A program made the position numbers and the translations under genes. Positions 20,461 through 39,604 of a DNA stretch of 64,000 nt are shown here, in pieces. The DNA is taken from the NCBI RefSeq assembly GCF_056746865.1, contig NZ_CM163382.1; one strand, 5' to 3'. The notes under the pieces were generated by a model that was given only the letters and a program-made list of their open reading frames with translations, searched no databases and was not told the DNA's origin. Position 1 is the stretch's first letter, and each line of letters begins with the position of its first letter.

Positions 20461-22437
20461 ATGGTGGAAAGAACCATGGCATTTAAACACTATGATGTTG
20501 TCAGGGCGGCATCGCCGTCAGACCTTGCGAAACGACTGACACAAAAACTGAAGGAGGGGTGGCAGCCATTTGGCAGTCCGGTGGCCATCACGCCTTATAC
20601 CCTGATGCAGGCCATTGCGGCGGAAGGTGATGTCACCACACCTGTGGTGGTGAAGCCGTCGGATGGAGAAGGCGCAGTTATCAGCACCACCAGCAACCCG
20701 GAGTATTACTTTGTTGTTGCCCTGGCCGGGCAGTCAAACGGTATGGCGTATGGTGAAGGGCTTCCGCTGCCGGAGACATATGACCGTCCGGACCCGCGTA
20801 TTAAACAGCTGGCGCGTCGCAGCACTGTCACGCCGGGTGGTGCGTCCTGTAACTACAATGACATTATTCCTGCGGACCACTGCCTGCATGATGTTCAGGA
20901 TTTGAGTAAGTTTTCACACCCGAAAGCCAGCGCAGCTCAGTATGGATGCGTGGGGCAGGGATTACATATCGCGAAGAAATTGTTGCCGTTTATTCCGGCG
21001 AATGCCGGTATTCTTCTGGTTCCGTGCTGCCGTGGTGGTTCTGCATTTTTGGCGGGCGATGAAGGTACCTTCAGCGAATCCACCGGCGCAAGCGAGACCT
21101 CGGCACGCTGGGGTGTAGATAAGCCACTGTACAAGGACCTGCTTACCCGTACTCAGGCCGCACTGAAGGCCAACCCTAAAAATATTCTGCTTGCAGTGGT
21201 CTGGATGCAGGGCGAGTTTGATTTGAAACAGGGTGCATACGCCACTCAGCCGGGGCTGTTTGATTCCATGGTGGAAAAATATCGTTCTGACCTGTCGGAA
21301 TTCGGAGGTCAGTGTCTCGGGGGCTCTCCGTCATCAGTTCCCTGGATTTGTGGCGACACGACCTACTACTGGAAGCAGACTTATTCTTCGCAATACGATG
21401 CGGTGTATGGTGCATACAAGACGAAATCCGCAAAAAAAATCTTCTTTGTGCCGTTTATGACGGATGAAAACGGGCGAAATGTGGGTACCAACGAGCCGTC
21501 AGAAGATCCGGATGTTGCGGATATTGGGTATTACGGAGCCGGTGGTCGAACGGACGCCAAAACCTGGACGACGGCTGACCGTAAAACGCATTTTGGATCA
21601 TGGGCACGTCGTGGGATTATTTCCGACCGTCTGGCAACGGCGATTCTTGTGCATGCCGGGAGAAACGCTGAATTCATTACCGGAAAACAGCCTGATACGG
21701 TGAAGCCCACCGGACCTTCCGGTGAAGGTACGGAGAGAGAGCCGGGAGCCCCGGTCAGTAACCGAACCCTGATGAGTCTGCTGGCGTCCGGCGAAGACCT
21801 GGCATCACAGGGCTGGCGCTATTATCACAAACCGGCGAGCGGAGACAATGTTAACAAAAACATTGCTGAAGCGGTGGTCAGTGATGCGGGGGCTACGGGA
21901 GGTAAGGCCCTGCAACTGAATAAACCGGAAAACCACATCTGGTTTCTGGAGCATGATGCAGCCGGACAGGGAGTGGAGTTACTGAAGAAGGGGGGACGTG
22001 TGAGCGTACGGTTTAAGTTGCCGGGTTCACTGGTGCCGAATCAGTTTGCCCTGGGCATTTACTGGCAGTTGTCGTCCCTGCCGGAGGGAGTGACGCTGGC
22101 AGAGGAAGGCAACGACATGCTGATGTCCTTCTTTCTGCAGACGGATGCGACGAACCTGAACGCGATGCACCACAAGAAGCCGAATGCGAAGCTGGAAACG
22201 TTCGGGGTCTTTGATAACGGATGGCACACACTGGCTTTTGAGTTTGCCGGAAACAACAGCATTCAGGTGACGCCGGTACTGGATGAGAAACGGGGGACGC
22301 CGTTCACACTGGTGAAATCTCCGGCATCAGGGGCGGCGGACAAACTGCAACTGACAGGCATATCAAAGGCGGCGACATATACGCTGCTGATTGACAGTGT
22401 GAAGGTGGAAGTGAACAACGCGGACATCGCGGCATGA
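20461..22437 (+). CDS. nanS-p: NanS-p-type prophage sialate O-acetylesterase (SGNH hydrolase)
   Basis: 658 aa; N-terminal MAFKHYDVV (DUF1737-like), GQSN catalytic block; typical position downstream of Q in EHEC-type lambdoid prophages; likely start ATG 20476. Confidence 0.75.
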   Translation: MVERTMAFKHYDVVRAASPSDLAKRLTQKLKEGWQPFGSPVAITPYTLMQAIAAEGDVTTPVVVKPSDGEGAVISTTSNPEYYFVVALAGQSNGMAYGEGLPLPETYDRPDPRIKQLARRSTVTPGGASCNYNDIIPADHCLHDVQDLSKFSHPKASAAQYGCVGQGLHIAKKLLPFIPANAGILLVPCCRGGSAFLAGDEGTFSESTGASETSARWGVDKPLYKDLLTRTQAALKANPKNILLAVVWMQGEFDLKQGAYATQPGLFDSMVEKYRSDLSEFGGQCLGGSPSSVPWICGDTTYYWKQTYSSQYDAVYGAYKTKSAKKIFFVPFMTDENGRNVGTNEPSEDPDVADIGYYGAGGRTDAKTWTTADRKTHFGSWARRGIISDRLATAILVHAGRNAEFITGKQPDTVKPTGPSGEGTEREPGAPVSNRTLMSLLASGEDLASQGWRYYHKPASGDNVNKNIAEAVVSDAGATGGKALQLNKPENHIWFLEHDAAGQGVELLKKGGRVSVRFKLPGSLVPNQFALGIYWQLSSLPEGVTLAEEGNDMLMSFFLQTDATNLNAMHHKKPNAKLETFGVFDNGWHTLAFEFAGNNSIQVTPVLDEKRGTPFTLVKSPASGAADKLQLTGISKAATYTLLIDSVKVEVNNADIAA

Positions 22438-23039: not shown

Positions 23040-23115
23040 GCCTGCGCAAGGGACCATCGGTGTGTGCCGGTGGTCTTTATATTGTTGTGAGCTTCCGGAT
23101 AACGGGAGACGGGGT

Positions 23116-23331
23116 ATGTACCAGATGGAAAAAATCACAACAGGTGTGTCATACACCACGTCAGCGGTGGGAACGGGCTACTGGTTCCTGCAGTTGCTGG
23201 ACAGGGTTTCCCCGTCTCAGTGGGCGGCAATAGGCGTGCTGGGGAGTCTGCTGTTTGGGCTGCTGACGTACCTGACTAACCTGTATTTCAAAATCAAAGA
23301 GGACCGGCGTAAGGCGGCGCGGGGAGAGTAA
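23116..23331 (+). CDS. S: Holin S (lambdoid, 933W/phage-21 type)
   Basis: 71 aa [28 protein letters not shown]...; TM segments; charged C-terminus. Confidence 0.85.
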
Positions 23332-23332
23332 A

Positions 23333-24226
23333 GTGATGAATAAAAAATATGAACTGGTTGTTAAGGGGATAAATAATTACGGGGATAAGGTTACTGTTAC
23401 TGTGAAGCCGGAAGGTGACGGGCAAGCGTCGCTGTTGTTGCCAGATGTGGCGATTAGTCTTGACCGTACTGAAGGTGCCACGCTGGAGTTTTACGAAGCT
23501 GAGGCGAAAAAGCAGGCGAAGCAGTTTTTCATGGATGTTGCTGCCGGGTTATGTGAATGGAACGAACCGTTGCCGGAAAAGCGCCCCGTAATTTTAGAGG
23601 CGCAGGATGTGTTGATAACCTACAAAGGAAAGCTACCGGGAAGAATTACTTGTTCTCTGAAGATGCCGCCGTCAACACTGCGGTCAGAAAAAGATGATGT
23701 TGAATCACGTATTGAAAAACTGGAGAGCTACGTCGTTGAGCTGAATAAGAAATGGTCGATATTGGTGCCTTCTGGCGATGAAAAGCAGTTTGCTGCGTTT
23801 GACGATTATTGTCGGAAAGTGATGAGCAGAAATCTCGCAGAGTGTTTCAGTATTCATAATGATAATTTCAGTGACCCGGAATGGGAGTGTAACCGGCCAT
23901 CCTTTGTTGTATCCGGTGATGCTGGGAAAATAACCATCTCAGAAAATGGGAAAGTAACACCTCCATCGCACCAGCACAGTGAGGAGCTCATTGAATTTGC
24001 CATTGATTACCTGAAGAACAATAAAAAGCAGGGGCTGATGAAGCGCGTTGGCCGTTGCATGGGATATCTTCAGGTAGCCGCTGAGATTGAAGCGCTGGCC
24101 AGTGGTGCTGATAAGGATGCAATTGTGCGGGAGGCTCTTCTTCGTGATTTTAATACTCCACCCTTTAAAAAAGTGCCGGCTTACTGGCTTCATCCGGGGC
24201 TGACTTATCTTAAAGTGCGTATTTAG
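23333..24226 (+). CDS. Unknown 297-aa protein inserted between holin and endolysin
   Basis: ORF begins 2 nt after holin stop (GTG 23333 / ATG 23336); no TM, no signal peptide, no motif recognised. Confidence 0.6.
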   Translation: MMNKKYELVVKGINNYGDKVTVTVKPEGDGQASLLLPDVAISLDRTEGATLEFYEAEAKKQAKQFFMDVAAGLCEWNEPLPEKRPVILEAQDVLITYKGKLPGRITCSLKMPPSTLRSEKDDVESRIEKLESYVVELNKKWSILVPSGDEKQFAAFDDYCRKVMSRNLAECFSIHNDNFSDPEWECNRPSFVVSGDAGKITISENGKVTPPSHQHSEELIEFAIDYLKNNKKQGLMKRVGRCMGYLQVAAEIEALASGADKDAIVREALLRDFNTPPFKKVPAYWLHPGLTYLKVRI

Positions 24227-24262
24227 TGGGCCAGGGACAGCGGCTGAATATTTAATATATCC

Positions 24263-24796
24263 ATGAACACCAAAATCAAATACGGCCTGTCGGCTGCCGT
24301 TCTGGCGCTGATTGCCGCTGGTGCGCCTGCGCCTGACATTCTCGACCAGTTTCTGGATGAAAAGGAAGGCAACCACACCACGGCATACCGTGATGGTGCA
24401 GGTATCTGGACCATCTGCCGTGGTGCCATCATGGTGGATGGCAAACCTGTCGTTCCGGGCATGAAGTTGTCGAAGGAAAAATGCGACCAGGTTAACGCCA
24501 TTGAGCGTGATAAAGCGCTGGCGTGGGTGGAGAAAAACATCAGAGTGCCGCTGACCGAACCCCAGAAAGCGGGGATCGCGTCATTCTGTCCGTACAACAT
24601 TGGTCCCGGTAAGTGTTTCCCGTCGACGTTTTACAGACGAATTAATGCAGGTGATCGAAAAGGTGCCTGCGAAGCGATTCGCTGGTGGATTAAGGACGGT
24701 GGCAGAGACTGCCGTATTCGTTCAAACAACTGTTACGGTCAGGTATCCCGTCGTGACCAGGAGAGCGCGCTGGCGTGCTGGGGTATCGACAGATAA
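24263..24796 (+). CDS. R: Endolysin R, lysozyme with N-terminal SAR (signal-anchor-release) segment
   Basis: 177 aa; YGLSAAVLALIAAGAPAPDIL SAR segment; EGNHTTAYRDGAGIWTICRG lysozyme catalytic region. Confidence 0.9.
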   Translation: MNTKIKYGLSAAVLALIAAGAPAPDILDQFLDEKEGNHTTAYRDGAGIWTICRGAIMVDGKPVVPGMKLSKEKCDQVNAIERDKALAWVEKNIRVPLTEPQKAGIASFCPYNIGPGKCFPSTFYRRINAGDRKGACEAIRWWIKDGGRDCRIRSNNCYGQVSRRDQESALACWGIDR

Positions 24797-24919
24797 GCAG
24801 AATATTTTGCTGAAAAATGAGGAATGGCCACGCGGGCGGATAACACGAAATCCTGCGAACTGGCGAAACGTAAGTGAATAAAAGTAAAAACCCCGTTTGT
24901 TGGCACCAAGCGAGGTTTT

Positions 24920-25135
24920 GTGTTTCTGACCTTGAGTAAGGCAAGGGAGAACATGGCGAAGTGTAAACGAATTCTGTTGAGGTTGACTATGAAAAATGGC
25001 CTTGAACTGAAAGCGCCTGTAACTGATGACATCAGCAGAGCACTGGCTTTTGCCATTAAGTGGGTGGCGGTCGGTGTTGCTGTGTCCCCGATGCTGTATG
25101 GGCTGGCAAAACTGGTCATTGCGTTGAAATCGTGA
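24920..25135 (+). CDS. Hypothetical protein between R and Rz
   Basis: 71-aa ORF; C-terminal hydrophobic segment. Confidence 0.35.
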
Positions 25136-25149
25136 AGGGAGGATTAAGC

Positions 25150-25281
25150 ATGTCAGACAAACTCATAACGCTGGCGAAGATCCTCTGTGTAATTGTCGGC
25201 ATTTCATTTTCACTAATGCTGGTTGCTCTTTTTCTTTCCATGGCCTGGATGATGTTGTCTTCGTCGGGGTTGCTGGGGTGA
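25150..25281 (+). CDS. Small membrane protein (43 aa), hypothetical
   Basis: [51 protein letters not shown]. Confidence 0.3.
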
Positions 25282-25751
25282 ACATAAACCGAATGCTTTC
25301 CGCGTTTATCGTTATTCTGCTGGTGGCCTGTGGTGCGCTGTGGATGGCAACAGACCATTACCGTGATAACGCGATTACCTACAAAGCGCAGCGCGATAAC
25401 AAAGCCAGTGAACTGAAGCTGGCGAACGCAACCATTACTGATATGCAGGTGCGCCAGCGCGATGTTGCTGCGCTCGATGCAAAATACTCGAGGGAATTAG
25501 CCGATGCGAGAGCTGAAAATGAAACTCTTCGCGCTGACGTTGCCGCTGGTCGTAAGCGCCTGCGGATCAACGCCACCTGTCCAGGCTCCGTGCGTGAAGC
25601 CCCCACCACCTCCGGCGTGGATAATGCAACCGGCCCCCAACTGGCAGACACCGTTACACGGGATTATTTCACCCTCAGAGAGCGGCTGATGACGATGCAC
25701 AAGCAACTGGAAGGGGCACAGGACTATATCCGCACTCAGTGCCTGAAATAA
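25278..25751 (+). CDS. Rz: Spanin inner-membrane subunit Rz
   Basis: 157 aa; N-terminal TM; coiled-coil periplasmic region; embedded Rz1. Confidence 0.85.
25519..25689 (+). CDS. Rz1: Spanin outer-membrane lipoprotein Rz1 (embedded in Rz, +1 frame)
   Basis: [15 protein letters not shown] lipobox, proline-rich mature peptide. Confidence 0.75.
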
Positions 25752-26061
25752 GTTTTGTTGATGCGCCGTATCGTCGCTATATTCCCTCATTAACAGAGAC
25801 CGCAGCCCGACAGGGAGACTCCTCTGCGCGAGTGTGCGGGGATAATTAAAAACGATGCACACCGGGTTTTTACCGCGTTAATGATTCGCGGGTTTATCCC
25901 GGTGCGATGGTGGAAGAAACAGGAAGCTGTATTACAGAAAGTGCTACTACTGTATCCCGATGCGATGTATGTAATGTGAGTCAGATAATGGCACAGGATG
26001 TGGTGATGTGGCAGTCTGGAACACAGGATATATTGTCAGAATAAGACCCGTAGGAATAAAA

Positions 26062-26388
26062 ATGAAAAGACGCCTTTTACTACTTTTTCTGTTATCTGTC
26101 CTGGCAGTGGGATGCTCGCAGCAAAAAGCTGATGAGCCCCGGCAATTAGTGACGGTGTATCCACGATATCCGGAATATGCTGCAGCAAATTATATCAAGG
26201 GGCTGGTTGAGGTTAAGTTCGATATTGGTGCTGATGGGACTGTGACACGGATCGTTTTTCTCCGCTCAGAGCCTCATAATTTGTTTCGTGATGAAGTGGT
26301 GAAGGCCATGGCGAAATGGCGATTTGAAAAGAATCGCCCCTGTCAGGGAGTGAAGAGACAATTTATCTTTACGCCGTCACGTCCTTGA
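26062..26388 (+). CDS. Lipoprotein with TonB C-terminal-like domain
   Basis: MKRRLLLLFLLSVLAVGCSQQ lipobox; YPRYPEYAAANYIKGLVEVKFDIGADGTV resembles TonB_C. Confidence 0.55.
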   Translation: MKRRLLLLFLLSVLAVGCSQQKADEPRQLVTVYPRYPEYAAANYIKGLVEVKFDIGADGTVTRIVFLRSEPHNLFRDEVVKAMAKWRFEKNRPCQGVKRQFIFTPSRP

Positions 26389-26510
26389 TGCTTCCAGGTA
26401 GAGAGGGGCTGGACGCAGGAGAAAAATGAAAGAGCCAGCGGTTATATTTTTGTCATGGCTGACGAGGAATGATGGAAGAAGGCGTTGTATGCCACACAAC
26501 GCCTCACTGT

Positions 26511-27003
26511 TCATTTCTTCTTTTTCTCTGGTGGAACCCGATGAATAAGAGTTGCACTGGTTTCCGATGAGATGGCGATATACTCGGGCAAAGTATGCTG
26601 GCAGTTTTCCAACTGGTCAAAAATACCTGCTCTCGTCTGTTGCAATGCCTGCAGCATGCGGCGGCAATGCGCCTTGCTTTTACTAACCATCTTTCCTTCC
26701 TCTATCAGTCGCTGCGTGAACTCATCATGTAATACCAGGTAAATGCGGATGTTATCGGTTTTGGCTACGCAGCATAGTACAAAACGGACAGGGGCATCCC
26801 GGGACGGGGGAGGCGTCACATGTCCCTGTGATGGTTGTTCCGGGTAATGCACTGTGTGGGGCATAAAAATGTCCGATAATTTTACTTTCTACCGCAGTTA
26901 GTTGATTCGTTGGTCCTGGTAGCACATTGGGCGAGGATTTAAATGCCAGGCAACTGAAGGATGATGTTGCAAGGGAGATAGCGAGAATATTTCTGATTTT
27001 CAT
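26511..27003 (-). pseudogene. Possible frameshifted secreted-protein gene (two overlapping minus-strand ORFs)
   Basis: Track ORFs 26752..27072 (signal peptide MKIRNILAISLATSSFSCLA) and 26511..26864 overlap in different frames. Confidence 0.3.
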
Positions 27004-27151
27004 TTGATGATGCCTCTGTGTGAAATGACGGTAAACGACGCACTTGTGCCGGCACATAATAGCAAGCACCATAATAGATCAGATTCGATTCTTGCTGTAA
27101 GTGATAATTATTCTCGTTTTCGGGTCCTTTCCGTCGATCCAACAGGTTACG

Positions 27152-27163
27152 GGGCGGCGACCT
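27152..27163. other. cos: cosN cohesive-end site (GGGCGGCGACCT)
   Basis: ACGGGGCGGCGACCTCGCGCGTTTTCGCTATTTATGA matches lambda cos as recalled; about 220 bp upstream of Nu1. Confidence 0.7.
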
Positions 27164-27379
27164 CGCGCGTTTTCGCTATTTATGAGATTTTTTGAGGGGG
27201 TGGTTGTTGTTTAATTGTTTGGTATATCTACTTGATAAGTAAGGTGAAAATAAAATAAATACAACAACCTTACGATGTATTTTGATGTCATTAATGTGAA
27301 AAAATTCAATGATATCAAATGGTTTTGTAAAAACACATGGTTGTTGTATCGCTTTTTATCGATGACTTATGGAGAGGAG

Positions 27380-27886
27380 ATGGCCTTTTTATTGAATAAA
27401 AGTGATATGGCCTCCTCCATTGGTATCTCTGTTCAGGCATTTGATAAATGGGGCGTTCCTCCTGTTGAGCGTCGGGGTAGGGAGGTTTTTTATGACGTTA
27501 AAACTGTACTGGAGATAGATCGCGAGCGGCGACAATACAATCAGAGAACACCTGATGACGGGGGCGATCTGGAGGAAAGACTGCTTCGGGCCAGAGCTGA
27601 ACTGACAGAAGAACAGGCTGTAGCTCAAAAACTTAAAAATCAGGTAACCGAAGGTAAGCTCATCGATTCAGACTTCTGCGTTTTCGCCCTCAGCAAACTG
27701 GCGATGGCATTGTCCAGTACGCTTGATTCCATTCCGTTATCCATGCAGCGACAGTTCCCGGATTTAACGCCACGTCATATTGACCATCTGAAAACCCTTA
27801 TTGCAAAGGGCGCAAATCAGTGTGCGCGGGCGGGGGATAAATTACCGGATTTACTCGATGAATATATCAGAGCAACAACTGAATAA
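27380..27886 (+). CDS. nu1: Terminase small subunit (Nu1-like)
   Basis: Alignable with lambda Nu1 (FALSKLA...LDSIPLSMQRQFPDL); start ATG 27380 with GGAGAGGAG RBS. Confidence 0.8.
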   Translation: MAFLLNKSDMASSIGISVQAFDKWGVPPVERRGREVFYDVKTVLEIDRERRQYNQRTPDDGGDLEERLLRARAELTEEQAVAQKLKNQVTEGKLIDSDFCVFALSKLAMALSSTLDSIPLSMQRQFPDLTPRHIDHLKTLIAKGANQCARAGDKLPDLLDEYIRATTE

Positions 27887-29786
27887 TATGATGAGTGCTG
27901 TCACAACAGCATTACAGCCCCTGATAAGGGCATTGCCGGTGACGCCAGTTGAATGGGCTGATCAAAATTATTATCTGCCTAAAGAATCTTCATATGGTGA
28001 GGGAGAATGGAAAACGCTGCCGTTCCAGATCGCCATCATGAACAGTATGGGGAATGATCAGATCCGCACTGTTAATCTGATTAAATCTGCCCGTGTTGGC
28101 TATACAAAGATGTTGCTGGGAGTCGCCGGGTATTTTATTGAGCATAAATCCCGAAACAGTCTGCTTTTTCAGCCCACGGATTCTGCCGCTGAAGATTTTA
28201 TGAAGTCTCACGTGGAGGCGACGATTCGGGACGTGCCATGCCTGAAAGATCTTTCCCCGTGGCTGGGTCGTAAACATCGTGACAATACTCTCACGCTGAA
28301 ACGCTTTTCATCGGGCGTGGGCTTCTGGTGCCTGGGCGGGGCTGCCGCTAAAAACTACCGTGAAAAATCCGTGGATGTGGTCTGTTATGACGAGCTTTCC
28401 TCGTTCGAACCGGATGTTGAAAAAGAGGGTTCGCCAACCCTGCTGGGGGATAAACGTATTGAGGGCTCTGTATGGCCCAAATCCATTCGCGGCTCGACGC
28501 CTAAAATCAAAGGCTCCTGCCAGATCGAAAAAGCCGCTAACGAGTCGGCACACTTCATGCGTTTTTATGTGCCCTGTCCGCACTGTGGGGAGGAGCAGTA
28601 TCTGAAATTTGGCGATGATGCCTCGCCTTTCGGTCTTAAGTGGGAGAAGAATAAGCCAGAAAGTGTTTTCTACCTTTGTGAGCATCATGGCTGTGTGATC
28701 CATCAGTCTGAGCTTGACCAGAGTAACGGGCGGTGGATCTGTGAAAACACGGGCATGTGGACCCGTGACGGCCTGACGTTTTTCAGCGCTGCGGGTAATG
28801 AAATTCCGCCGCCGCGCTCCATCACGTTCCATATCTGGACGGCGTACAGTCCGTTCACCACCTGGGTACAGATAGTCTATGACTGGCTGGATGCACTGAA
28901 AGATCCCAACGGCCTGAAAACCTTTGTGAACACCACGCTGGGCGAGACCTGGGAAGAGGCTGTGGGCGAAAAACTCGATCACCAGGTACTGATGGATAAG
29001 GTTGTGCGTTACACGGCGGCGGTGCCTGCCCGGGTGGTTTATCTGACGGCGGGCATTGACTCGCAGCGAAACCGTTTTGAGATGTATGTCTGGGGATGGG
29101 CACCGGGAGAGGAAGCTTTTCTGGTGGATAAAATCATCATTATGGGCCGTCCCGATGAGGAAGAGACGCTGTTACGTGTGGATGCGGCGATCAACAAAAA
29201 ATACTGCCATGCAGACGGAACCGAAATGACCATTTCCCGTGTCTGCTGGGACACCGGGGGGATCGATGGTGAAATTGTCTATCAGAGGTCAAAAAAACAC
29301 GGTGTTTTCCGGGTGCTGCCGGTAAAAGGCGCATCTGTCTATGGCAAGCCGGTGATCACCATGCCGAAAACCCGCAATCAGCGGGGCGTGTATCTGTGTG
29401 AAGTGGGGACGGACACCGCAAAAGAAATTCTCTATGCCCGTATGAAAGCCGAGCCCACGCCTGCGGATGAAGCCACGTCGTATGCCATCCGTTTTCCTGA
29501 TGATCCGGAGATTTTTTCGCAGACAGAGGCGCAGCAACTGGTCGCGGAAGAGCTTGTGGAGAAGTGGGAAAAAGGAAAGATGCGTCTGCTGTGGGATAAC
29601 AAAAAGCGGCGTAACGAAGCGCTGGACTGCCTGGTGTATGCCTACGCGGCATTACGTGTGTCCGTGCAACGCTGGCAGCTTGATCTGGCTGTACTGGCAA
29701 AATCCCGGGAAGAAGAGACGACCCGGCCAACCCTTAAAGAACTGGCAGCGAAGCTGTCCGGAGGAGTGAATGGTTACAGTCGCTGA
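27858..29786 (+). CDS. A: Terminase large subunit (gpA-like)
   Basis: Extensive similarity to lambda gpA (VEWADQNYYLPKESSYGEGEWKTLPFQ, Walker A-like region, CPHCGEEQYLKFGD). Confidence 0.92.
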   Translation: MNISEQQLNNMMSAVTTALQPLIRALPVTPVEWADQNYYLPKESSYGEGEWKTLPFQIAIMNSMGNDQIRTVNLIKSARVGYTKMLLGVAGYFIEHKSRNSLLFQPTDSAAEDFMKSHVEATIRDVPCLKDLSPWLGRKHRDNTLTLKRFSSGVGFWCLGGAAAKNYREKSVDVVCYDELSSFEPDVEKEGSPTLLGDKRIEGSVWPKSIRGSTPKIKGSCQIEKAANESAHFMRFYVPCPHCGEEQYLKFGDDASPFGLKWEKNKPESVFYLCEHHGCVIHQSELDQSNGRWICENTGMWTRDGLTFFSAAGNEIPPPRSITFHIWTAYSPFTTWVQIVYDWLDALKDPNGLKTFVNTTLGETWEEAVGEKLDHQVLMDKVVRYTAAVPARVVYLTAGIDSQRNRFEMYVWGWAPGEEAFLVDKIIIMGRPDEEETLLRVDAAINKKYCHADGTEMTISRVCWDTGGIDGEIVYQRSKKHGVFRVLPVKGASVYGKPVITMPKTRNQRGVYLCEVGTDTAKEILYARMKAEPTPADEATSYAIRFPDDPEIFSQTEAQQLVAEELVEKWEKGKMRLLWDNKKRRNEALDCLVYAYAALRVSVQRWQLDLAVLAKSREEETTRPTLKELAAKLSGGVNGYSR

Positions 29787-33495: not shown

Positions 33496-34416
33496 ATGGG
33501 ATTGTTTACGACCCGCCAGTTACTCGGTTATACCGAACAAAAAGTGAAATTCCGTGCGCTGTTTCTGGAGCTGTTTTTCCGCCGTACGGTGAATTTCCAC
33601 ACCGAAGAGGTGATGCTGGACAAAATTACCGGAAAAACGCCGGTGGCGGCCTATGTCTCCCCAATCGTTGAAGGAAAAGTGCTTCGCCATCGCGGTGGTG
33701 AAACCCGCGTGTTACGTCCGGGCTACGTCAAGCCCAAACACGAATTTAGCACGCCGGAGGGGGAGCGGTATATCCCTTGTGTGAATATTTCCGCGGAGCC
33801 GGAGGCGTATTTTCGTATCGCACCGGAAGACTGGCTGCGGGCAGAGATGCAGGGGGAGATTGTGGCACTGGTCCACAGTCATCCCGGTGGGCTGCCCTGG
33901 CTGAGCGAGGCTGACCGGCGGCTGCAGATAAAAAGCGCACTGCCCTGGTGGCTGGTCTGCCGGGGTGACATTCACAAATTCCGCTGTGTGCCACATCTGA
34001 CGGGACGGCGCTTTGAGCACGGGGTGACGGACTGTTACACGCTGTTCCGGGATGCTTATCATCTGGCGGGGACTGAAATGCCGGATTTTCATCGCGAGGA
34101 TGACTGGTGGCGCAACGGCCAGAACCTGTACCTGGACAACCTGGCGGAAAACGGCTTTTGCCGGGTGTCTCCGTCCTCTGCACAGGCAGGCGATGTGCTG
34201 CTGTGCTGCTTTGGATCATCGGTGCCGAATCATGCCGCCGTTTACTGTGGTGACGGCGAGCTGCTGCACCATATTCCTGAACAACTGAGTAAACGGGAGA
34301 GGTATTCCGAAAAATGGCAACGACGAACGCATTCAGTCTGGCGTCACCGCCACTGGCACGCATCCGCCTTTACGGGGATTTACAACGATTTGGCCGCCGC
34401 CTCAGCCTGTATGTGA
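33496..34416 (+). pseudogene. In-frame chimera: N-terminal ~84 aa of major capsid protein E fused to C-terminal ~220 aa of tail protein K
   Basis: Residues 1-84 align with lambda gpE N-terminus (QLL...FRRTVNF...YVSPIV...PGYVKPKHE); remainder aligns with lambda gpK (STPEGERY.PCVNIS.EPEAYFR, HSHPGG JAMM motif); junction near 33745. Confidence 0.8.
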
Positions 34417-34994
34417 ACACGGCAGCGGAAGCCATTCGCGCCCTGTCGATGCAGATGCCGGGCTTTCGCCGTCAGATGAACGAAGGCTGGTACCAGATAC
34501 GTATTGCCGGTGATGACACGGCACCGGAGGCGGTGTACGCCCGTCTTCACGAACAGCTGGGTGAGGGAACGGTCATCCATATTGTGCCGCGACTGGCCGG
34601 GGCCGGAAAGGGTGGACTGCAGATTGTGCTGGGGGCGGCAGCCATCGTGGGCTCTTTCTTCACTGCCGGTGCCTCGATGGCGTTATGGGGTACAGCCCTG
34701 AGTGCCGGCGGTTTTTCTGCCACCACGATGCTGTTTTCACTGGGGGCCAGCATGATACTGGGCGGTGTGGCCCAGATGCTGGCCCCGAAGGCAAAAACAC
34801 CGGATTACCGCGCAACGGATAACGGCAGACAGAACACGTACTTTTCCTCGCTGGATAACATGATTGCCCAGGGGAACCCGATGCCGGTGCCTTACGGGGA
34901 AATGCTGGTTGGCTCCCGCCGTATATCCCAGGACATCAGCACCCGTGATGAAGGCGGGGGCGGAAAGGTCGTGGTTATCGGGCGGCAGGGGTAA
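34314..34994 (+). CDS. I: Tail assembly protein I
   Basis: 226 aa; RLYGDLQRFGRR...QNTYFSSLDNM...GEMLVGSRRISQ similar to lambda gpI; overlaps K end as in lambda. Confidence 0.85.
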   Translation: MATTNAFSLASPPLARIRLYGDLQRFGRRLSLYVNTAAEAIRALSMQMPGFRRQMNEGWYQIRIAGDDTAPEAVYARLHEQLGEGTVIHIVPRLAGAGKGGLQIVLGAAAIVGSFFTAGASMALWGTALSAGGFSATTMLFSLGASMILGGVAQMLAPKAKTPDYRATDNGRQNTYFSSLDNMIAQGNPMPVPYGEMLVGSRRISQDISTRDEGGGGKVVVIGRQG

Positions 34995-35170: not shown

Positions 35171-35200
35171 CAGGCATCCTCCGGGGTGCCTGTTGTTTTT
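35171..35200 (+). terminator. Candidate intrinsic terminator in the I-J intergenic insert
   Basis: CAGGCA.CC-tccg-GG.TGCCTG hairpin followed by TTGTTTTTTGGG. Confidence 0.45.
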
Positions 35201-35244
35201 TGGGCATAAACAGATTCAGACATCAGACAGGAGAGGGGGAGCGA

Positions 35245-38200
35245 GTGGGTAAAGGTGGCGGTAAGGCGCACACACCGCGCGAGGCGAAGGATAATCTCAA
35301 ATCCACGCAGATGATGAGTGTGATTGATGCGATTGGTGAGGGACCGATAGAAGGTCCGGTGAAGGGACTGCAGAGTATCCTGGTGAACAAAACCCCGCTG
35401 ACGGACACGGACGGTAATCCCGTGATACACGGTGTGACCGCGGTCTGGCGTGCCGGGGAGCAGGAGCAGACACCACCGGAAGGCTTTGAGTCCTCCGGAG
35501 CTGAAACCGGACTGGGCGTGGAAGTGACGAAGGCAAAACCGGTGACGCGCACCATTACGTCCGCGAACATTGACCGCCTGCGGGTTACCTTCGGGGTGCA
35601 GTCACTGGTGCAGACCACGTCAAAGGGTGACCGTAACCCGACATCCGTCCGCCTGCTGATTCAGTTACAGCGTAACGGTAACTGGGTGACAGAAAAGGAC
35701 GTCACCATTAACGGCAAGACCACCTCACAGTTCCTGGCCTCGGTGATTCTGGATAATCTGCCTCCCCGGCCCTTTAACATCCGGATGGTCAGGGAGACGG
35801 CGGACAGCACCACGGACCAGCTGCAGAATAAGACGCTGTGGTCGTCATACACCGAAATCATCGATGTGAAACAGTGCTACCCGAACACGGCCATTGTGGG
35901 GCTGCAGGTGGATGCGGAGCAGTTCGGCGGCCAGCAGATGACGGTGAACTACCATATCCGCGGTCGCATCATCCAGGTGCCGTCAAACTATGACCCGGAA
36001 AAACGCACGTACAGTGGTATCTGGGACGGCAGCCTGAAACCGGCATACAGCAACAACCCGGCCTGGTGTCTGTGGGACATGCTGACTCACCCGCGCTACG
36101 GCATGGGAAAACGTCTGGGGGCGGCGGATGTGGACAAGTGGGCGCTGTATGCCATCGGGCAGTACTGCGACCAGACGGTCCCGGATGGTTTCGGGGGGAC
36201 CGAGCCGCGGATGACCTTTAATGCGTACCTGGCACAACAGCGTAAGGCGTGGGACGTTCTCAGTGATTTCTGCTCTGCGATGCGCTGTATGCCGGTATGG
36301 AACGGCCAGACGCTGACGTTCGTTCAGGACCGTCCGTCGGATGTGGTGTGGCCGTACACCAACAGCGATGTGGTGGTGGATGATAACGGCGTGGGTTTCC
36401 GCTACAGCTTCAGTGCCCTGAAGGACCGGCACACGGCAGTGGAGGTGAATTACACCGACCCGCAGAACGGCTGGCAGACCTCCACGGAACTGGTGGAAGA
36501 CCCGGAAGCCATACTGCGCTACGGACGCAACCTGCTGAAGATGGACGCGTTCGGCTGTACCAGCCGCGGTCAGGCCCACCGTGCCGGGCTGTGGGTGATA
36601 AAGACCGAACTGCTGGAAACGCAGACGGTGGATTTCACGCTCGGGTCACAGGGGCTGCGTCACACACCCGGTGACATCATTGAAATCTGTGATAACGACT
36701 ATGCCGGGACCATGACCGGCGGACGTGTCCTGTCCATCGATGCCGCCAGCCGTACCCTGACGCTGGACCGGGAGGTGACACTGCCGGAGACCGGCACGGC
36801 CACTGTTAATCTGATTAACGGCAGCGGTAAGCCGGCGAGCGTGGCCATCACCGCACACCCCGCGCCTGACCGGATACAGGTCAGCACCCTGCCGGATGGT
36901 GTGGAGACATACGGTGTGTGGGGACTCTCCCTGCCGTCACTGCGTCGTCGCCTGTTCTGCTGTGTCTCCATCCGGGAAAACACGGACGGCACGTTCGCCA
37001 TCACGGCGGTGCAGCACGTACCGGAAAAAGAAGCCATTGTGGATAACGGGGCCAGCTTTGAGCCGCAGTCAGGCAGCCTGAACAGCGTTATCCCACCGGC
37101 AGTGCAGCACCTGACGGTGGAGGTGAGTGCAGCTGACGGTCAGTATCTGGCACAGGCGAAATGGGACACGCCGCGGGTGGTGAAGGGTGTGCGCTTCAGT
37201 CTGCGTCTGACCAGCGGAAGCGGAGAAGACAGCCGTCTGGTGAGCACCGCCATCACCGCAGACACGGAGCACCGTTTCAGTGGTCTGCCGCTGGGGGAAT
37301 ACACCCTGACGGTGCGGGCCATTAACAGCTACGGCCAGCAGGGCGAACCTGCGACCACCACCTTCCGGATTAACGCGCCTGCAAAACCCGCCACCATTGA
37401 GCTGACGCCGGGGTATTTTCAGATAACGGCGGTCCCGCGTCTTGCGGTGTATGACCCGACGGTACAGTTTGAATTCTGGTTCTCAGAAAAACGCATCACG
37501 AACACGGCACAGGTGGAAAAATCTGCCCGTTATCTGGGGACCGGCAGTCAGTGGACTGTCCAGGGGAGCCGGATTAAGCCGGGGACGGATTTCTGGTTTT
37601 ACGTGCGAAGCGTCAACCTGGTGGGAAAATCTGCTTTTGTGGAAGCCAGCGGGCAGCCCAGCAATGATGGTGAAGGGTATCTGGAAATTTTCCGGGGGCT
37701 GATAGATGAGACGCTTCTGGGCCAGGCACTGAAAGAGCGCATTGATGCTTCAGCGCTGCGTACGGAGGTCACGCAACTGGAAGAAGACATCCGTCAGCGG
37801 ATGGACACGGATATCGCAGAAGTGACCCGGAAAATCGGGGAGGCGGAAAACAGCCTCACGCAGCTGGTTGCGAAAAAGAATGAGGACCAGACACTGGCCA
37901 TCGCGCAGGTGAGCCAGAAAGTGGACCGGGTGAGCAGTGAAATCTCACAGACTGTCAGCCAGGGGCAGTCAGAAAATGCCCGACAGATAGCACAGGTCCG
38001 CCAGTACGTGGATAAAAAAGGGAGTGAAATTACCTCGACCACGGATAAAAAACTGGGTGACCAGGCCGTGACCATACAGCAAATCCAGCGGGTTCAGTCA
38101 GACACGCGCAATGAGCTGAATGCCATGTATATGCTGAAGGTGCAGAAAACAAAAAACGGTATTCCCTATGTGGCCGGGATTGGTGCGGGGATTGAGGATG

Positions 38201-38937
38201 TTGATGGTCAGACGCTGAGCAGTATTCTGCTGCAGGCTGACCGTATCGCGATGATTACCCCGGAGAACGGCAACACCACGCCGCTGTTTGTGGCGCAGGG
38301 GAATCAGCTGTTCATGAACGACGTGTTCCTGAAGCGACTGTTTGCGGTGAGCATCACGTCATCCGGCAATCCTCCGACGTTTTCCCTGACGCCGGATGGC
38401 AGGCTGACAGCCCGCAATGCGGATATCAGTGGAGCCATCACGGCGAATACCGGCACGCTCAATAATGTCACCATTAACGAGAACTGTGTCATCAGAGGGA
38501 AACTGTCTGCAAACCAGATTGAAGGCGATCTCGTTAAAACAGTGGGTAAGGCTTTCCCTCGTGACTCCCGTGCACCGAAGCGGTGGCCATCAGGAACCAT
38601 TACCGTCAGGGTTTATGACGATCAGCCGTTTAACCGGCAGATTGTTATTCCGGCGGTGGCTTTCAGCGGTGCCAGACATGAGCGGGAGAACAGCGATACT
38701 TATTCGTCATGCCGCCTGATAGTGAAGAAAAACGGTGCTGAAATTTATAACCGTACCGCGCTGGATAATACGCTGATTTACAGTGGTGTTATTGATATGC
38801 CAGCTGGTCGCGGCCACATGACGCTGGAGTTTTCTGTATCAGCATGGTGGGTAAATGGCTGGTATCCCACAGCAAGTATCAGCGATTTGCTGGTTGTTGT
38901 GATGAAGAAAGCCACTGCAGGCATCACGATTAGCTGA
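35245..38937 (+). CDS. J: Host-specificity / central tail fibre protein J
   Basis: About 1230 aa, GTG start ([21 protein letters not shown] as lambda J); collinear with lambda J with an extra coiled-coil-like segment. Confidence 0.92.
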
Positions 38938-39004: not shown

Positions 39005-39604
39005 ATGCGTAAAGTTTGTGCAGCCATTTTGTCCGCAGCCATCTGTCTGTCCGTATCCGGTGCGCCTGCATGGGCGTCTGAACATCAGTCCACACTGAGC
39101 GCAGGGTATCTTCATGCCCGTACGAACGCTCCCGGCAGCGATAATCTGAACGGGATTAACGTGAAATACCGTTATGAGTTTACGGACGCGCTGGGGCTGA
39201 TTACGTCCTTCAGTTATGCCAATGCTGAGGATGAGCAAAAAACGCACTACAGCGATACCCGCTGGCATGAAGATTCCGTGCGTAACCGCTGGTTCAGCGT
39301 GATGGCGGGGCCGTCTGTACGCGTGAATGAATGGTTCAGCGCGTATGCGATGGCGGGTGTGGCTTACAGCCGTGTGTCGACTTTCTCCGGGGATTATCTC
39401 CGCGTAACTGACAACAAGGGGAAAAAGCACGATGTGCTGACCGGAAGTGATGACGGTCGCCACAGCAACACGTCTCTGGCGTGGGGAGCTGGCGTGCAGT
39501 TTAACCCGACCGAATCCGTGGCCATTGATGTCGCTTATGAAGGCTCCGGCAGCGGTGACTGGCGTACCAACAGTTTCATCGTTGGTGTCGGTTATAAGTT
39601 CTGA
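39005..39604 (+). CDS. lom: Outer-membrane protein Lom (Ail/Lom family)
   Basis: 199 aa, signal peptide, beta-barrel pattern ending GVGYKF. Confidence 0.9.
   Translation: MRKVCAAILSAAICLSVSGAPAWASEHQSTLSAGYLHARTNAPGSDNLNGINVKYRYEFTDALGLITSFSYANAEDEQKTHYSDTRWHEDSVRNRWFSVMAGPSVRVNEWFSAYAMAGVAYSRVSTFSGDYLRVTDNKGKKHDVLTGSDDGRHSNTSLAWGAGVQFNPTESVAIDVAYEGSGSGDWRTNSFIVGVGYKF

What the first reader, a model, noticed from the sequence alone, without database searches (positions are those of the whole stretch)
26062..26388. Lipoprotein with TonB C-terminal-like domain downstream of the lysis cassette
This ORF sits where lambdoid phages often carry bor-type cargo genes. It has a lipobox signal (LAVGCSQQ) and a short domain resembling the TonB C-terminal fold. 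Such a protein could interact with TonB-dependent receptors, for example to mediate superinfection exclusion or alter iron or colicin uptake.
Basis: inference. Interest (0 to 1): 0.45.

Follow-up and report, generated by a model that had tools for sequence, protein, structure and literature searches.

The report
Prophage lipoprotein carrying a TonB head
A small prophage cargo gene encodes an outer-membrane-anchored copy of just the receptor-docking head of the TonB energy-coupling protein; databases already annotate it and it is common in E. coli, but its function is untested, and it most likely acts as a decoy that jams TonB-dependent uptake of phages, colicins and iron.

Summary
Window 26062-26388 (+) is a 108-aa ORF with a good Shine-Dalgarno, a signal peptide ending in the lipobox LAVGC, no Asp at +2, a 15-residue tether and a TonB_C domain (Pfam 49 bits against a cut-off of 24.6). 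The AlphaFold model superposes on solved E. coli TonB C-terminal domains at about 1 Å. The gene lies after holin, lysozyme and Rz/Rz1 and before terminase, in a defective lambdoid prophage of E. coli.

It is not new as a sequence. The identical gene is in phage 21 ('TonB C-terminal domain protein') and in 1224 of 5426 complete E. coli genomes ('TonB family protein'). A 70%-identical allele is in 415 more genomes, and Klebsiella has 40%-identical relatives. dN/dS of about 0.1 and a lipobox kept in every clade show a working gene. I found no functional study. PHROGs labels the family 'Rz-like spanin', which is probably wrong.

It is not a TonB: the membrane anchor and the proline-rich spacer are missing. 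The best explanation, which is inferred, is an outer-membrane-tethered TonB-head decoy that competes for Ton boxes. Support comes from a fused-Ton-box AlphaFold model and from published inhibition by periplasmic TonB fragments. Against it, three Ton-box contact residues are not kept and expression in lysogens is unproven. Interest is moderate.

The parts
26062..26388 (+). CDS, 108 aa: outer-membrane lipoprotein made of a TonB C-terminal domain only. Identical to WP_000830178.1 and to phage 21 CPT_21_73.
   Evidence: ORF and translation; Pfam, NCBIfam and PDB matches; 100% identical in phage 21 and in 1224 E. coli genomes; dN/dS 0.10-0.12 against the 70% allele.
26062..26115 (+). Signal peptide with lipobox LAVGC (residues 1-18). 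Cys18 is the predicted lipidated first residue of the mature protein. +2 Ser predicts outer-membrane sorting.
   Evidence: The PROSITE lipoprotein rule is met in 7 members down to about 40% identity, and none has Asp at +2. pLDDT is below 50, as expected for a signal peptide. The '+2 rule' is established knowledge, not tested here.
26116..26157 (+). Short tether (residues 19-32, SQQKADEPRQLVTV). It includes the stretch equivalent to TonB 150-159.
   Evidence: The distance from Cys to the PxYP motif is 15-17 residues in all clades. Alignment to TonB 150-160.
26158..26358 (+). TonB_C domain as delimited by Pfam (residues 33-99). The folded core in the model spans residues 25-105.
   Evidence: Conserved YP motif (Y36, P37 = TonB Y163, P164) and core residues F53, G59, F75, W86, F88, F103 (= TonB F180, G186, F202, W213, Y215, F230).
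26341..26370 (+). Beta3 strand (residues 94-103, QGVKRQFIF), equivalent to TonB 221-230. It covers most of the TonB 225-231 strand that pairs with Ton boxes. No C-terminal beta4 follows it.
   Evidence: DSSP strand 94-103 in the model. TonB 225-231 pairs with the BtuB Ton box (PMC13253070). In the fusion model the FhuA Ton box becomes a strand.
26052..26055 (+). Shine-Dalgarno AGGA.
   Evidence: Read from the sequence.
26032..26047 (+). Conserved block ATTGTCAGAATAAGAC. It is a candidate extended -10 promoter (TGTCAGAAT; TGTTAGAAT in the other allele and in one allele-1 variant). Inference only.
   Evidence: It is the only well-conserved block just upstream of the ATG across alleles whose flanks diverge. 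It was not picked up by the sigma-70 consensus scan.
25762..26061 (+). Upstream non-coding block that travels with the gene between phage types.
   Evidence: The match to phage 21 starts at 25762, just after Rz. Homologous at 68-70% overall, and about 90% in its 5' half, to the region upstream of allele 2. No Rfam hit and no significant fold.
23062..25751 (+). Context: lysis cassette. Holin 23062-23331, DUF1327 protein 23333-24226, lysozyme 24263-24796, Rz 25278-25751 with embedded Rz1 25504-25689.
   Evidence: Pfam hits. Rz1 belongs to phrog_3198.
27275..29786 (+). Context: terminase small (Nu1) and large subunits, co-oriented with the gene. The gene therefore lies inside the late transcription unit.
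   Evidence: Pfam Phage_Nu1. Annotation of identical regions.

Best explanation
The gene encodes a 91-residue mature lipoprotein. [quoted passage not shown] It consists of a short tether and a complete TonB C-terminal domain, the part of TonB that docks onto the 'Ton box' of outer-membrane transporters by adding a beta strand. It lacks TonB's inner-membrane anchor and its periplasm-spanning spacer, so it cannot deliver energy. The most likely mode of action is as a tethered, energy-dead TonB head sitting under the outer membrane. There it would occupy the Ton boxes of TonB-dependent transporters, and of incoming group B colicins, in competition with the cell's scarce TonB. That would partly phenocopy a tonB mutant: less TonB-dependent entry of phages such as T1 and phi80, of colicins and microcins, and of siderophores and vitamin B12. 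The gene is a mobile cargo gene (moron) of lambdoid prophages. It is transcribed at least with the late operon and possibly from its own weak promoter. Shown here: the ORF, the lipobox, the TonB_C fold, purifying selection, mobility and prevalence. Inferred: outer-membrane location, Ton-box binding, the inhibitory outcome and the time of expression.
For: Identity and fold. The lipobox is kept, and Asp at +2 is absent, in seven members down to about 40% identity, with tether length held at 15-17 residues. The gene is functional: dN/dS is 0.10-0.12 over the whole gene, signal peptide included, between alleles with saturated synonymous sites. The binding edge is present: beta3 (residues 94-103) is a free edge strand with no beta4 after it. 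The YP motif and the aromatic core are conserved. An AlphaFold2 fusion of domain, GS linker and FhuA N-terminus turns exactly the Ton box TITVT into a beta strand at pLDDT about 80, while the linker stays below 50. Ton-box binding is mainly backbone strand addition; in the TonB homologue FusB, loss of the salt bridge costs only about 3-fold in affinity (PMC13253070). Precedent for the outcome: over-expressed periplasmic TonB domain inhibits TonB-dependent iron import, and a Ton-box peptide reduces colicin killing and phi80 infection (PMC9841981 citing Howard 2001 and Tuckman 1992). Precedent for the strategy: the phage lipoproteins Llp and Cor sit in the inner leaflet of the outer membrane and act on the periplasmic face of FhuA (bioRxiv 10.64898/2026.03.26.714494). 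Cargo behaviour: the same slot is used in phages with different packaging modules; one copy is on a non-phage integrase island in K. aerogenes; GC is 46.8% against 54-55% for the lysis genes; the gene is intact in this defective prophage.
Against: No experiment or expression data exist. My ten literature searches found no functional study. The TonB residues that make side-chain contacts with receptors are not kept: R158 becomes T, K or S; Q160 becomes Y, L or H; R166 becomes Tyr in every family member. The partner may therefore differ. The fusion model is close to homology modelling, had no control, and I could not inspect which strand the Ton box pairs with. No consensus sigma-70 promoter or terminator flanks the gene, so expression in lysogens is unproven. 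Stoichiometry is a problem (my knowledge): transporters far outnumber TonB, so a decoy must be abundant to block Ton boxes. The gene is present in E. coli Nissle 1917, a strain known to depend on several siderophore systems (my knowledge), which argues against strong constitutive inhibition. Phage 21 uses LamB, so the gene does not protect the phage's own receptor. There is no PADLOC hit. Similar small TonB_C lipoproteins occur in ordinary chromosomal contexts, so the ancestral role need not be anti-phage.
Confidence: 0.45

Rival explanations
1. TonB trap. The lipoprotein pairs not with transporters but with the C-terminal domain of TonB itself, through the same beta3 edge and aromatic surface that TonB uses to dimerise. 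This would hold the few hundred TonB molecules at the outer membrane. The phenotype is the same as for the decoy model, but far fewer copies are needed.
For: The top structural match, 1u07, is a TonB CTD dimer, and the aromatic core residues are conserved. PMC13253070 describes the same strand serving dimerisation, Ton-box binding and substrate binding in the homologue FusB. It removes the stoichiometry objection (my knowledge of TonB copy number). The invariant R166-to-Tyr change and the loss of R158 and Q160 fit a changed partner.
Against: The physiological relevance of TonB CTD dimers is debated (my knowledge). The fusion model accepted a Ton box.
Confidence: 0.15
2. A lipoprotein with another ligand. 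It would be a member of a wider family of small secreted or lipidated TonB_C proteins whose role is unrelated to blocking TonB, for example envelope or peptidoglycan association, stress tolerance, or a Bor/Iss-like host-interaction role. Prophages would carry it as a fitness factor.
For: The exhaustive search found about 18 clusters of 100-135-aa proteins with a signal peptide or lipobox plus TonB_C only. Two of them sit next to ahpCF/GST or Usp genes, not in prophages. Six residues are invariant in the family and differ from E. coli TonB. The neighbours bor/iss and lom are host-fitness morons.
Against: No alternative ligand is indicated by any result. The only documented activity of this fold's beta3 edge is strand addition to Ton boxes and relatives.
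Confidence: 0.25
3. Lysis accessory or spanin, as implied by the PHROGs label 'Rz-like spanin' for phrog_1267.
For: phrog_1267 matches end to end, E=5e-43. The protein is a lipoprotein encoded just after the lysis genes, inside the late operon.
Against: A complete Rz with embedded Rz1 (Pfam Rz1, phrog_3198) is already present, and Rz precedes the gene in almost every locus that extends far enough upstream. The protein is a globular TonB_C domain, not a short Pro-rich o-spanin. It has no C-terminal transmembrane segment as a unimolecular spanin would. The K. aerogenes copy is far from any lysis gene.
Confidence: 0.04
4. Inert remnant: a fragment of a host tonB gene picked up by illegitimate recombination ('TonB fragment', 'partial tonB-like' in some annotations) with no function.
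For: Some records name it 'Partial tonB-like membrane protein' or 'TonB fragment'.
Against: dN/dS is about 0.1. It has an acquired signal peptide and a lipobox kept across clades at 40% identity. It is only 38% identical to the E. coli TonB CTD and has lower GC. It is intact in 1224 and 415 complete genomes.
Confidence: 0.03

Closest known systems
E. coli TonB C-terminal domain (residues about 150-239; PDB 1u07, 2gsk_B, 2grx_C)
   Same: Same fold (TM 0.89-0.92, rmsd about 1 Å). 38-41% identity. YP motif, aromatic core and the beta3 Ton-box-pairing strand are present.
   Different: There is no N-terminal membrane anchor and no Pro-rich spacer, so no coupling to ExbB/ExbD. It is anchored to the opposite (outer) membrane by a lipid. 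R158, Q160 and R166 are replaced, and the last four residues or so are absent.
Engineered periplasmic TonB fragments (Howard, Herrmann, Stratilo and Braun 2001, J Bacteriol 183:5885; cited in PMC9841981)
   Same: A TonB periplasmic domain exported without its energy-coupling anchor. It is reported to inhibit transport through FecA and FhuA. This is the behaviour proposed for the natural protein.
   Different: Those were laboratory constructs: soluble, over-expressed, and made from E. coli TonB itself. This protein is natural, lipid-tethered, diverged and phage-borne, and its activity is untested.
Llp (T5) and Cor (phi80, HK022, mEp167, T1) superinfection-exclusion lipoproteins
   Same: Small phage-encoded lipoproteins of the inner leaflet of the outer membrane that act on the periplasmic face of a TonB-dependent transporter.
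   Different: Unrelated fold and sequence. Llp and Cor are specific for FhuA, the receptor of the phages that carry them. The TonB_C lipoprotein would be generic for all Ton boxes, and its carrier phage 21 uses LamB.
Bor / Iss lipoproteins of lambdoid prophages
   Same: Same genomic slot (between Rz and cos/terminase). Both are small outer-membrane lipoprotein morons, and they lie side by side in phage 21 and Nissle 1917.
   Different: No sequence or domain similarity (only TonB_C was found). Opposite strand. bor is absent from this window.
Small chromosomal 'signal peptide or lipobox + TonB_C only' proteins (for example P0074, P0082, P0121, P0149)
   Same: Same architecture and length, 33-46% identity.
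   Different: They sit in ordinary chromosomal neighbourhoods rather than prophages. They are also uncharacterised.

Membership tests
TonB_C domain family (Pfam PF03544 / TIGR01352) | Profile score above the curated cut-off | tested here: met
   PF03544 49.2 bits against 24.6. TIGR01352 47.4 bits against 27.1.
TonB_C domain family (Pfam PF03544 / TIGR01352) | Three-stranded sheet plus helices fold that superposes on solved TonB CTDs | tested here: met
   AlphaFold2 pLDDT 95-98. Foldseek TMt 0.89-0.92 and rmsd 0.8-1.2 Å to 1u07, 2gsk_B and 2grx_C.
TonB_C domain family (Pfam PF03544 / TIGR01352) | Conserved YP motif and aromatic core (TonB Y163, P164, F180, G186, F202, W213, Y215, F230) | tested here: met
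   Y36, P37, F53, G59, F75, W86, F88 (Tyr to Phe) and F103.
TonB energy transducer (NCBIfam equivalogs NF008080-NF008084) | Full-length equivalog score above cut-off | tested here: not met
   The best is 69 bits against a cut-off of 315. Only profile positions about 150-240 are matched.
TonB energy transducer (NCBIfam equivalogs NF008080-NF008084) | Uncleaved N-terminal transmembrane anchor that couples to ExbB/ExbD | tested here: not met
   The only hydrophobic segment is a signal peptide ending in a lipobox. The protein is 108 aa.
TonB energy transducer (NCBIfam equivalogs NF008080-NF008084) | Proline-rich periplasm-spanning spacer | tested here: not met
   Only 15 residues lie between Cys18 and the PxYP motif.
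TonB energy transducer (NCBIfam equivalogs NF008080-NF008084) | Receptor-contact residues R158, Q160 and R166 | tested here: not met
   T31, Y33 and Y39 here. K/L/Y and S/H/Y in the other clades.
TonB energy transducer (NCBIfam equivalogs NF008080-NF008084) | Binding of Ton boxes by beta-strand addition to beta3 | tested here: inconclusive
   In the fusion AlphaFold2 model the Ton box TITVT is a strand at pLDDT about 80. There was no control, the strand partner was not inspected, and there is no binding assay.
Bacterial lipoproteins (signal peptidase II substrates) | Lipobox within a positively charged, hydrophobic signal peptide (PROSITE PS51257 rule) | tested here: met
   LAVGC with Cys18. 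The rule is met in all 7 diverged members.
Bacterial lipoproteins (signal peptidase II substrates) | Actual lipidation and outer-membrane sorting (no Lol-avoidance Asp at +2) | not testable with these tools
   +2 is S, A, T or G and never D, which predicts the outer membrane. Needs fractionation or globomycin and palmitate labelling.
Llp/Cor superinfection-exclusion lipoproteins | Llp/Cor fold and sequence family | tested here: not met
   All sequence and fold matches are to TonB_C. Llp/Cor is described as a distinct fold.
Llp/Cor superinfection-exclusion lipoproteins | Blocks infection through the carrier phage's own TonB-dependent receptor | not testable with these tools
   Phage 21's native receptor is LamB, so self-receptor blocking is unlikely. 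Heterotypic exclusion is untested.
Spanins (PHROG phrog_1267 label 'Rz-like spanin') | o-spanin: a short Pro-rich lipoprotein encoded within or next to its i-spanin partner. u-spanin: a lipoprotein with a C-terminal transmembrane segment. | tested here: not met
   A separate Rz/Rz1 pair is present. This protein is globular and has no C-terminal hydrophobic segment. One homologue is far from any lysis gene.
Bor/Iss family | Sequence similarity to Bor | tested here: not met
   No Bor hit in Pfam or NCBIfam. bor/iss is a separate neighbouring gene in phage 21 and Nissle.
Phage moron (autonomous cargo unit) | Inserted between conserved phage genes, present or absent among relatives, and compositionally distinct | tested here: met
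   Same slot in phages with Nu1-type or HNH/Terminase_2 packaging modules, with or without bor. Present in 15 of 50,697 phage records. GC 46.8% against 54-55% for the lysis genes.
Phage moron (autonomous cargo unit) | Own promoter and terminator | tested here: inconclusive
   No consensus promoter or terminator on the + strand. A conserved candidate extended -10, TGT(C/T)AGAAT, was seen by eye.

The most novel reading that the evidence does not exclude
Temperate phages of E. coli and Klebsiella carry a natural dominant-negative TonB. It would be an outer-membrane-tethered TonB head that blocks energy coupling to all TonB-dependent transporters at once. That would make it a broad-spectrum exclusion and colicin or microcin tolerance factor acting on the shared energy step rather than on a single receptor. 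It would be present in roughly a quarter of sequenced E. coli, including Nissle 1917 and the classical phage 21.
Probability: 0.35. Interest if true: 0.65.

Novelty: new variant of a known kind. Interest (0 to 1): 0.42.

Why it matters
If the decoy model is right, this would be the first natural example I am aware of in which a mobile element disables TonB energy coupling by mimicking TonB's docking head. No such case turned up in my literature searches. Known phage lipoproteins (Llp, Cor) each block one receptor. A TonB mimic would affect every TonB-dependent route at once: T1- and phi80-type phages, group B colicins, several microcins, siderophore-antibiotic conjugates, and iron and B12 uptake. 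The gene sits in 1224 of 5426 complete E. coli genomes, and a second allele in 415. It could therefore contribute to strain-to-strain differences in phage, colicin and 'Trojan horse' antibiotic susceptibility. The test is cheap: express one 327-bp gene and spot phages and colicins. A practical by-product is that the PHROGs label 'Rz-like spanin' for phrog_1267 appears to be wrong and propagates into phage annotations.

Tried and rejected
1. Literature. Ten full-text searches found no functional study. The terms were phage 21 + TonB C-terminal domain; prophage + TonB-like + lipoprotein + exclusion; 'tonB-like membrane protein'; TonB family protein + prophage; OL657228; WP_000830178; and others. 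The phage 21 genome announcement does not mention the gene in its text. Howard 2001 (PMC99666) is not held, so I cite it only through PMC9841981.
2. PADLOC defence models: no hit.
3. Structured RNA or riboswitch in the conserved upstream block: no Rfam match, and the fold z-score is -1.0. Rejected.
4. Fur box upstream of the window gene: the best match is 11/19, P(shuffle)=0.74. Rejected for this allele.
5. Consensus sigma-70 promoter or intrinsic terminator flanking the gene on the + strand: none found.
6. BFVD viral structure library: no match at E<0.001. The afdb50 library was unavailable.
7. Receptor of the window prophage from the J C-terminus: only 62% identical to lambda-type J tips, so uninformative.
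8. Monophyly of the phage clades relative to TonB: identities of 40-47% within the clades against 35-38% to the E. coli TonB CTD are too close to decide.
9. The spanin, Bor-like and dead-fragment readings were considered and rejected (see rivals).
10. I did not run the expensive genome contigs or metagenome scans, because viral contigs and the exhaustive protein search gave enough.

Full report
**1. What is in the sequence**

Window 26062-26388 (+) is an ATG-to-TGA ORF of 108 codons. An AGGA Shine-Dalgarno lies 6 nt upstream. The product is MKRRLLLLFLLSVLAVGC|SQQKADEPRQLVTVYPRYPEYAAANYIKGLVEVKFDIGADGTVTRIVFLRSEPHNLFRDEVVKAMAKWRFEKNRPCQGVKRQFIFTPSRP.

- The N-terminus meets the PROSITE lipoprotein rule, with Cys18 as the lipidation site.
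- The rest matches Pfam TonB_C (E=7e-13, 49.2 bits against a gathering score of 24.6) and TIGR01352 (47.4 against 27.1).
- It aligns to E. coli TonB residues 150-230 in solved structures at E about 1e-14.
- An AlphaFold2 model is confident over residues 25-105 (pLDDT 95-98). It superposes on TonB CTD chains, including the receptor-bound ones in BtuB:TonB (2gsk_B) and FhuA:TonB (2grx_C), at TM 0.89-0.92 and rmsd about 1 Å.

**2. Context**

The window is E. coli chromosome, 100% identical over 3.8 kb to strain CFSAN061770 among others. It carries a lambdoid prophage.

- Upstream of the gene and on the same strand lie a nanS-p-type esterase, a P21-type holin (23062-23331), a DUF1327 protein, the lysozyme (24263-24796) and Rz (25278-25751) with embedded Rz1 (25504-25689).
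- Downstream lie Nu1, the large terminase, portal, protease, the head decoration protein D and the rest of the late genes.
- The gene therefore lies inside the late transcription unit. In lambda-type phages the Q-antiterminated pR' transcript runs through this region (established knowledge).
- In phage 21 and in Nissle 1917 the bor/iss gene sits, on the opposite strand, between Rz and this gene. In the window bor is absent, and homology to phage 21 starts at 25762, right after Rz.

**3. It is already catalogued but not studied**

- The identical protein is CPT_21_73, 'TonB C-terminal domain protein', of phage 21 (OL657228).
- It is 'TonB family protein' WP_000830178.1 in 1224 of 5426 complete E. 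coli genomes, 1202 of them at 99% identity or more, including Nissle 1917 and the type strain.
- The exact sequence is on at least 1000 contigs in the large protein collection.
- Other records call it 'partial tonB-like membrane protein encoded within prophage CP-933N' or 'TonB fragment'.
- PHROGs places it end to end in phrog_1267, labelled 'Rz-like spanin'.
- None of my ten full-text searches found a functional study. The phage 21 genome announcement mentions morons only in general terms.

**4. It is a working gene and a family**

- A second allele, about 70% identical, is found in Stx1a-converting phages, JLK-2012 and Lys8385Vzw, and in 415 complete E. coli genomes.
- It occupies the same slot after Rz, but in phages with a different packaging module, HNH plus Terminase_2.
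- Between the alleles synonymous sites are saturated (dS 1.5-2.2) while dN is 0.18-0.22. That gives dN/dS of 0.10-0.12, and the signal peptide is equally constrained.
- Klebsiella prophages and genomes carry relatives at about 40% identity.
- One K. aerogenes copy is on an integrase-bounded island with no lysis or terminase gene within 5 kb.
- In all seven diverged members examined the lipobox is kept, +2 is never Asp, and the distance from the Cys to the PxYP motif is 15-17 residues.
- The exhaustive search of 1.8 billion representatives found 2795 hits at E of 1e-3 or better. The best 150 include about 18 clusters of 100-135-aa proteins that align from the signal peptide onward. About ten of these have lipoboxes and several have plain signal peptides.
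- Two that I looked up sit in ordinary chromosomal neighbourhoods.

The architecture 'export signal plus TonB_C and nothing else' is thus wider than phages. The prophage genes are one branch of it.

**5. What it is not**

- *Not a TonB.* The NCBIfam TonB equivalogs score 45-69 bits against cut-offs of 265-448 and match only their C-terminal third. There is no uncleaved membrane anchor and no proline-rich spacer.
- *Not a spanin.* A complete Rz/Rz1 pair is present. The protein is a globular domain with no C-terminal membrane segment, and a homologue exists away from lysis genes.
- *Not Bor/Iss*.
- *Not a decaying fragment*.

**6. How it most likely works**

With TonB numbering equal to query numbering plus 127, the following are kept:

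- the YP motif (Y36, P37 = TonB Y163, P164);
- the structural residues F180, G186, F202, W213, Y215 (here Phe) and F230;
- the beta3 strand. Residues 98-104, KRQFIFT, correspond to TonB 225-231.

The published BtuB:TonB structure shows that the Ton box DTLVVTAN aligns against TonB 225-231 by strand addition. In the TonB homologue FusB the accompanying salt bridge contributes only about 3-fold to affinity (PMC13253070). The prophage protein ends just after beta3, so that edge is not covered by a C-terminal strand.

I also folded a single chain made of the mature domain, a 20-residue Gly-Ser linker and the first 20 residues of mature FhuA. The linker stayed disordered (pLDDT below 50). The five residues TITVT, exactly the Ton box, became a beta strand with pLDDT about 80. 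This is compatible with Ton-box binding, but it is weak evidence.

[quoted passage not shown] The short, length-conserved tether would hold the domain just under the transporters.

Without an anchor in the inner membrane the domain can bind but cannot pull. Over-produced periplasmic TonB domain is reported to inhibit iron import through TonB-dependent transporters, and a Ton-box peptide to reduce colicin killing and phi80 infection (PMC9841981, citing Howard 2001 and Tuckman and Osburne 1992). Phage lipoproteins that sit in the same membrane leaflet and act on the periplasmic face of FhuA are established (Llp and Cor).

I therefore rank first a tethered, energy-dead TonB head that competes with TonB for Ton boxes, with confidence 0.45.

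**7. Doubts and rivals**

- Three TonB residues that make side-chain contacts with receptors are not conserved: R158, Q160 and R166. R166 is an invariant Tyr in the family. The partner could be different.
- One attractive variant is that the protein pairs with TonB's own C-terminal domain and sequesters it. That would solve the stoichiometry problem that transporters greatly outnumber TonB (confidence 0.15).
- The existence of chromosomal relatives leaves room for an unrelated ligand (confidence 0.25).
- Timing is open. No consensus promoter or terminator was found. By eye, a block ATTGT(C/T)AGAATAAGAC just upstream of the ATG is conserved between alleles whose flanks differ, and it reads as an extended -10, TGnTAGAAT.
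- The gene's presence in Nissle 1917, a strain that relies on siderophore uptake (my knowledge), argues against strong constitutive inhibition in lysogens.
- Phage 21's native receptor is LamB, so any exclusion would be directed at other phages or at colicins.

**8. Novelty and score**

As a sequence and as an annotation this is already known. As a mechanism it is an untested new variant on two known themes: phage outer-membrane lipoproteins that target TonB-dependent transporters, and dominant-negative TonB fragments. It is common, sits in a classical laboratory phage, and can be tested in a week. I score interest at 0.42. The most novel reading is a natural broad-spectrum anti-TonB exclusion factor, with probability about 0.35 and interest about 0.65 if true.

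Noticed in passing
window 33496-34416 (+): A single 306-aa ORF joins the first 85 residues or so of the lambda-type major capsid protein E (Pfam Phage_cap_E positions 1-81 of 329) to JAB and NlpC/P60 domains typical of tail protein K. gpI follows at 34314-34994 and J at 35200-38937. The rest of E and all tail-shaft genes (Z, U, V, G, T, H, M, L) are missing, so the prophage is defective, yet the TonB-like gene is intact.
   Followed up: partly
phrog_1267 (database label); window 26062-26388: PHROGs labels the family that matches this protein end to end, and its Klebsiella relatives, as 'Rz-like spanin' in category lysis. The window's true Rz1 belongs to phrog_3198. The label looks like a positional mis-annotation that will propagate into phage annotations.
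   Followed up: yes
window 25762-25920 (+); L005 and L003 upstream regions: The non-coding block upstream of the gene travels with it. Its 5' half is about 90% identical between alleles whose coding regions are only about 70% identical. There is no Rfam match and no significant RNA fold. The reason for the higher conservation is unexplained; recent recombination or a regulatory element are possibilities.
   Followed up: partly
L005 about 2965-2985 and L003 about 1500-1520 (allele 2, not in the window): Allele 2 has a perfect palindrome AGAATAAG-A-CTTATTCT overlapping the candidate -10. It matches the Fur-box consensus at 13/19, P(shuffle)=0.03-0.05, uncorrected for testing five sequences. The window allele lacks the second half-site (best 11/19, P=0.74). 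This is a possible iron-responsive operator in one allele only.
   Followed up: partly
L086/L087 5001-5342 (Klebsiella aerogenes): A 43%-identical lipoprotein homologue lies on an integrase-bounded island with PerC-like and ShlB-type two-partner-secretion genes, not in a phage late region.
   Followed up: no
window 23333-24226 (+): A 297-aa ORF with an N-terminal DUF1327 domain (residues 2-101) sits between holin and lysozyme. Its C-terminal 200 residues have no Pfam match.
   Followed up: no
window 39005-39604 (+) and 20461-22437 (+): The prophage carries other cargo genes. One is a Lom/Ail outer-membrane protein between J and the side tail fibre. The other is a 658-aa NanS-p-type esterase (DUF1737, SASA, DUF6645) upstream of the lysis genes.
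   Followed up: no
window 25752-27886: A block of lower GC (44-47%) runs from the end of Rz through the TonB-like gene and the cos region to Nu1. It is flanked by lysis genes at 54-55% and terminase/portal at 52-56%.
   Followed up: no
protein library (P0091, P0117, P0129, P0191 and others): Besides the lipoproteins, there are short TonB_C-only proteins with ordinary, non-lipobox signal peptides, that is, predicted soluble periplasmic TonB heads. Their organisms and functions are unknown.
   Followed up: no
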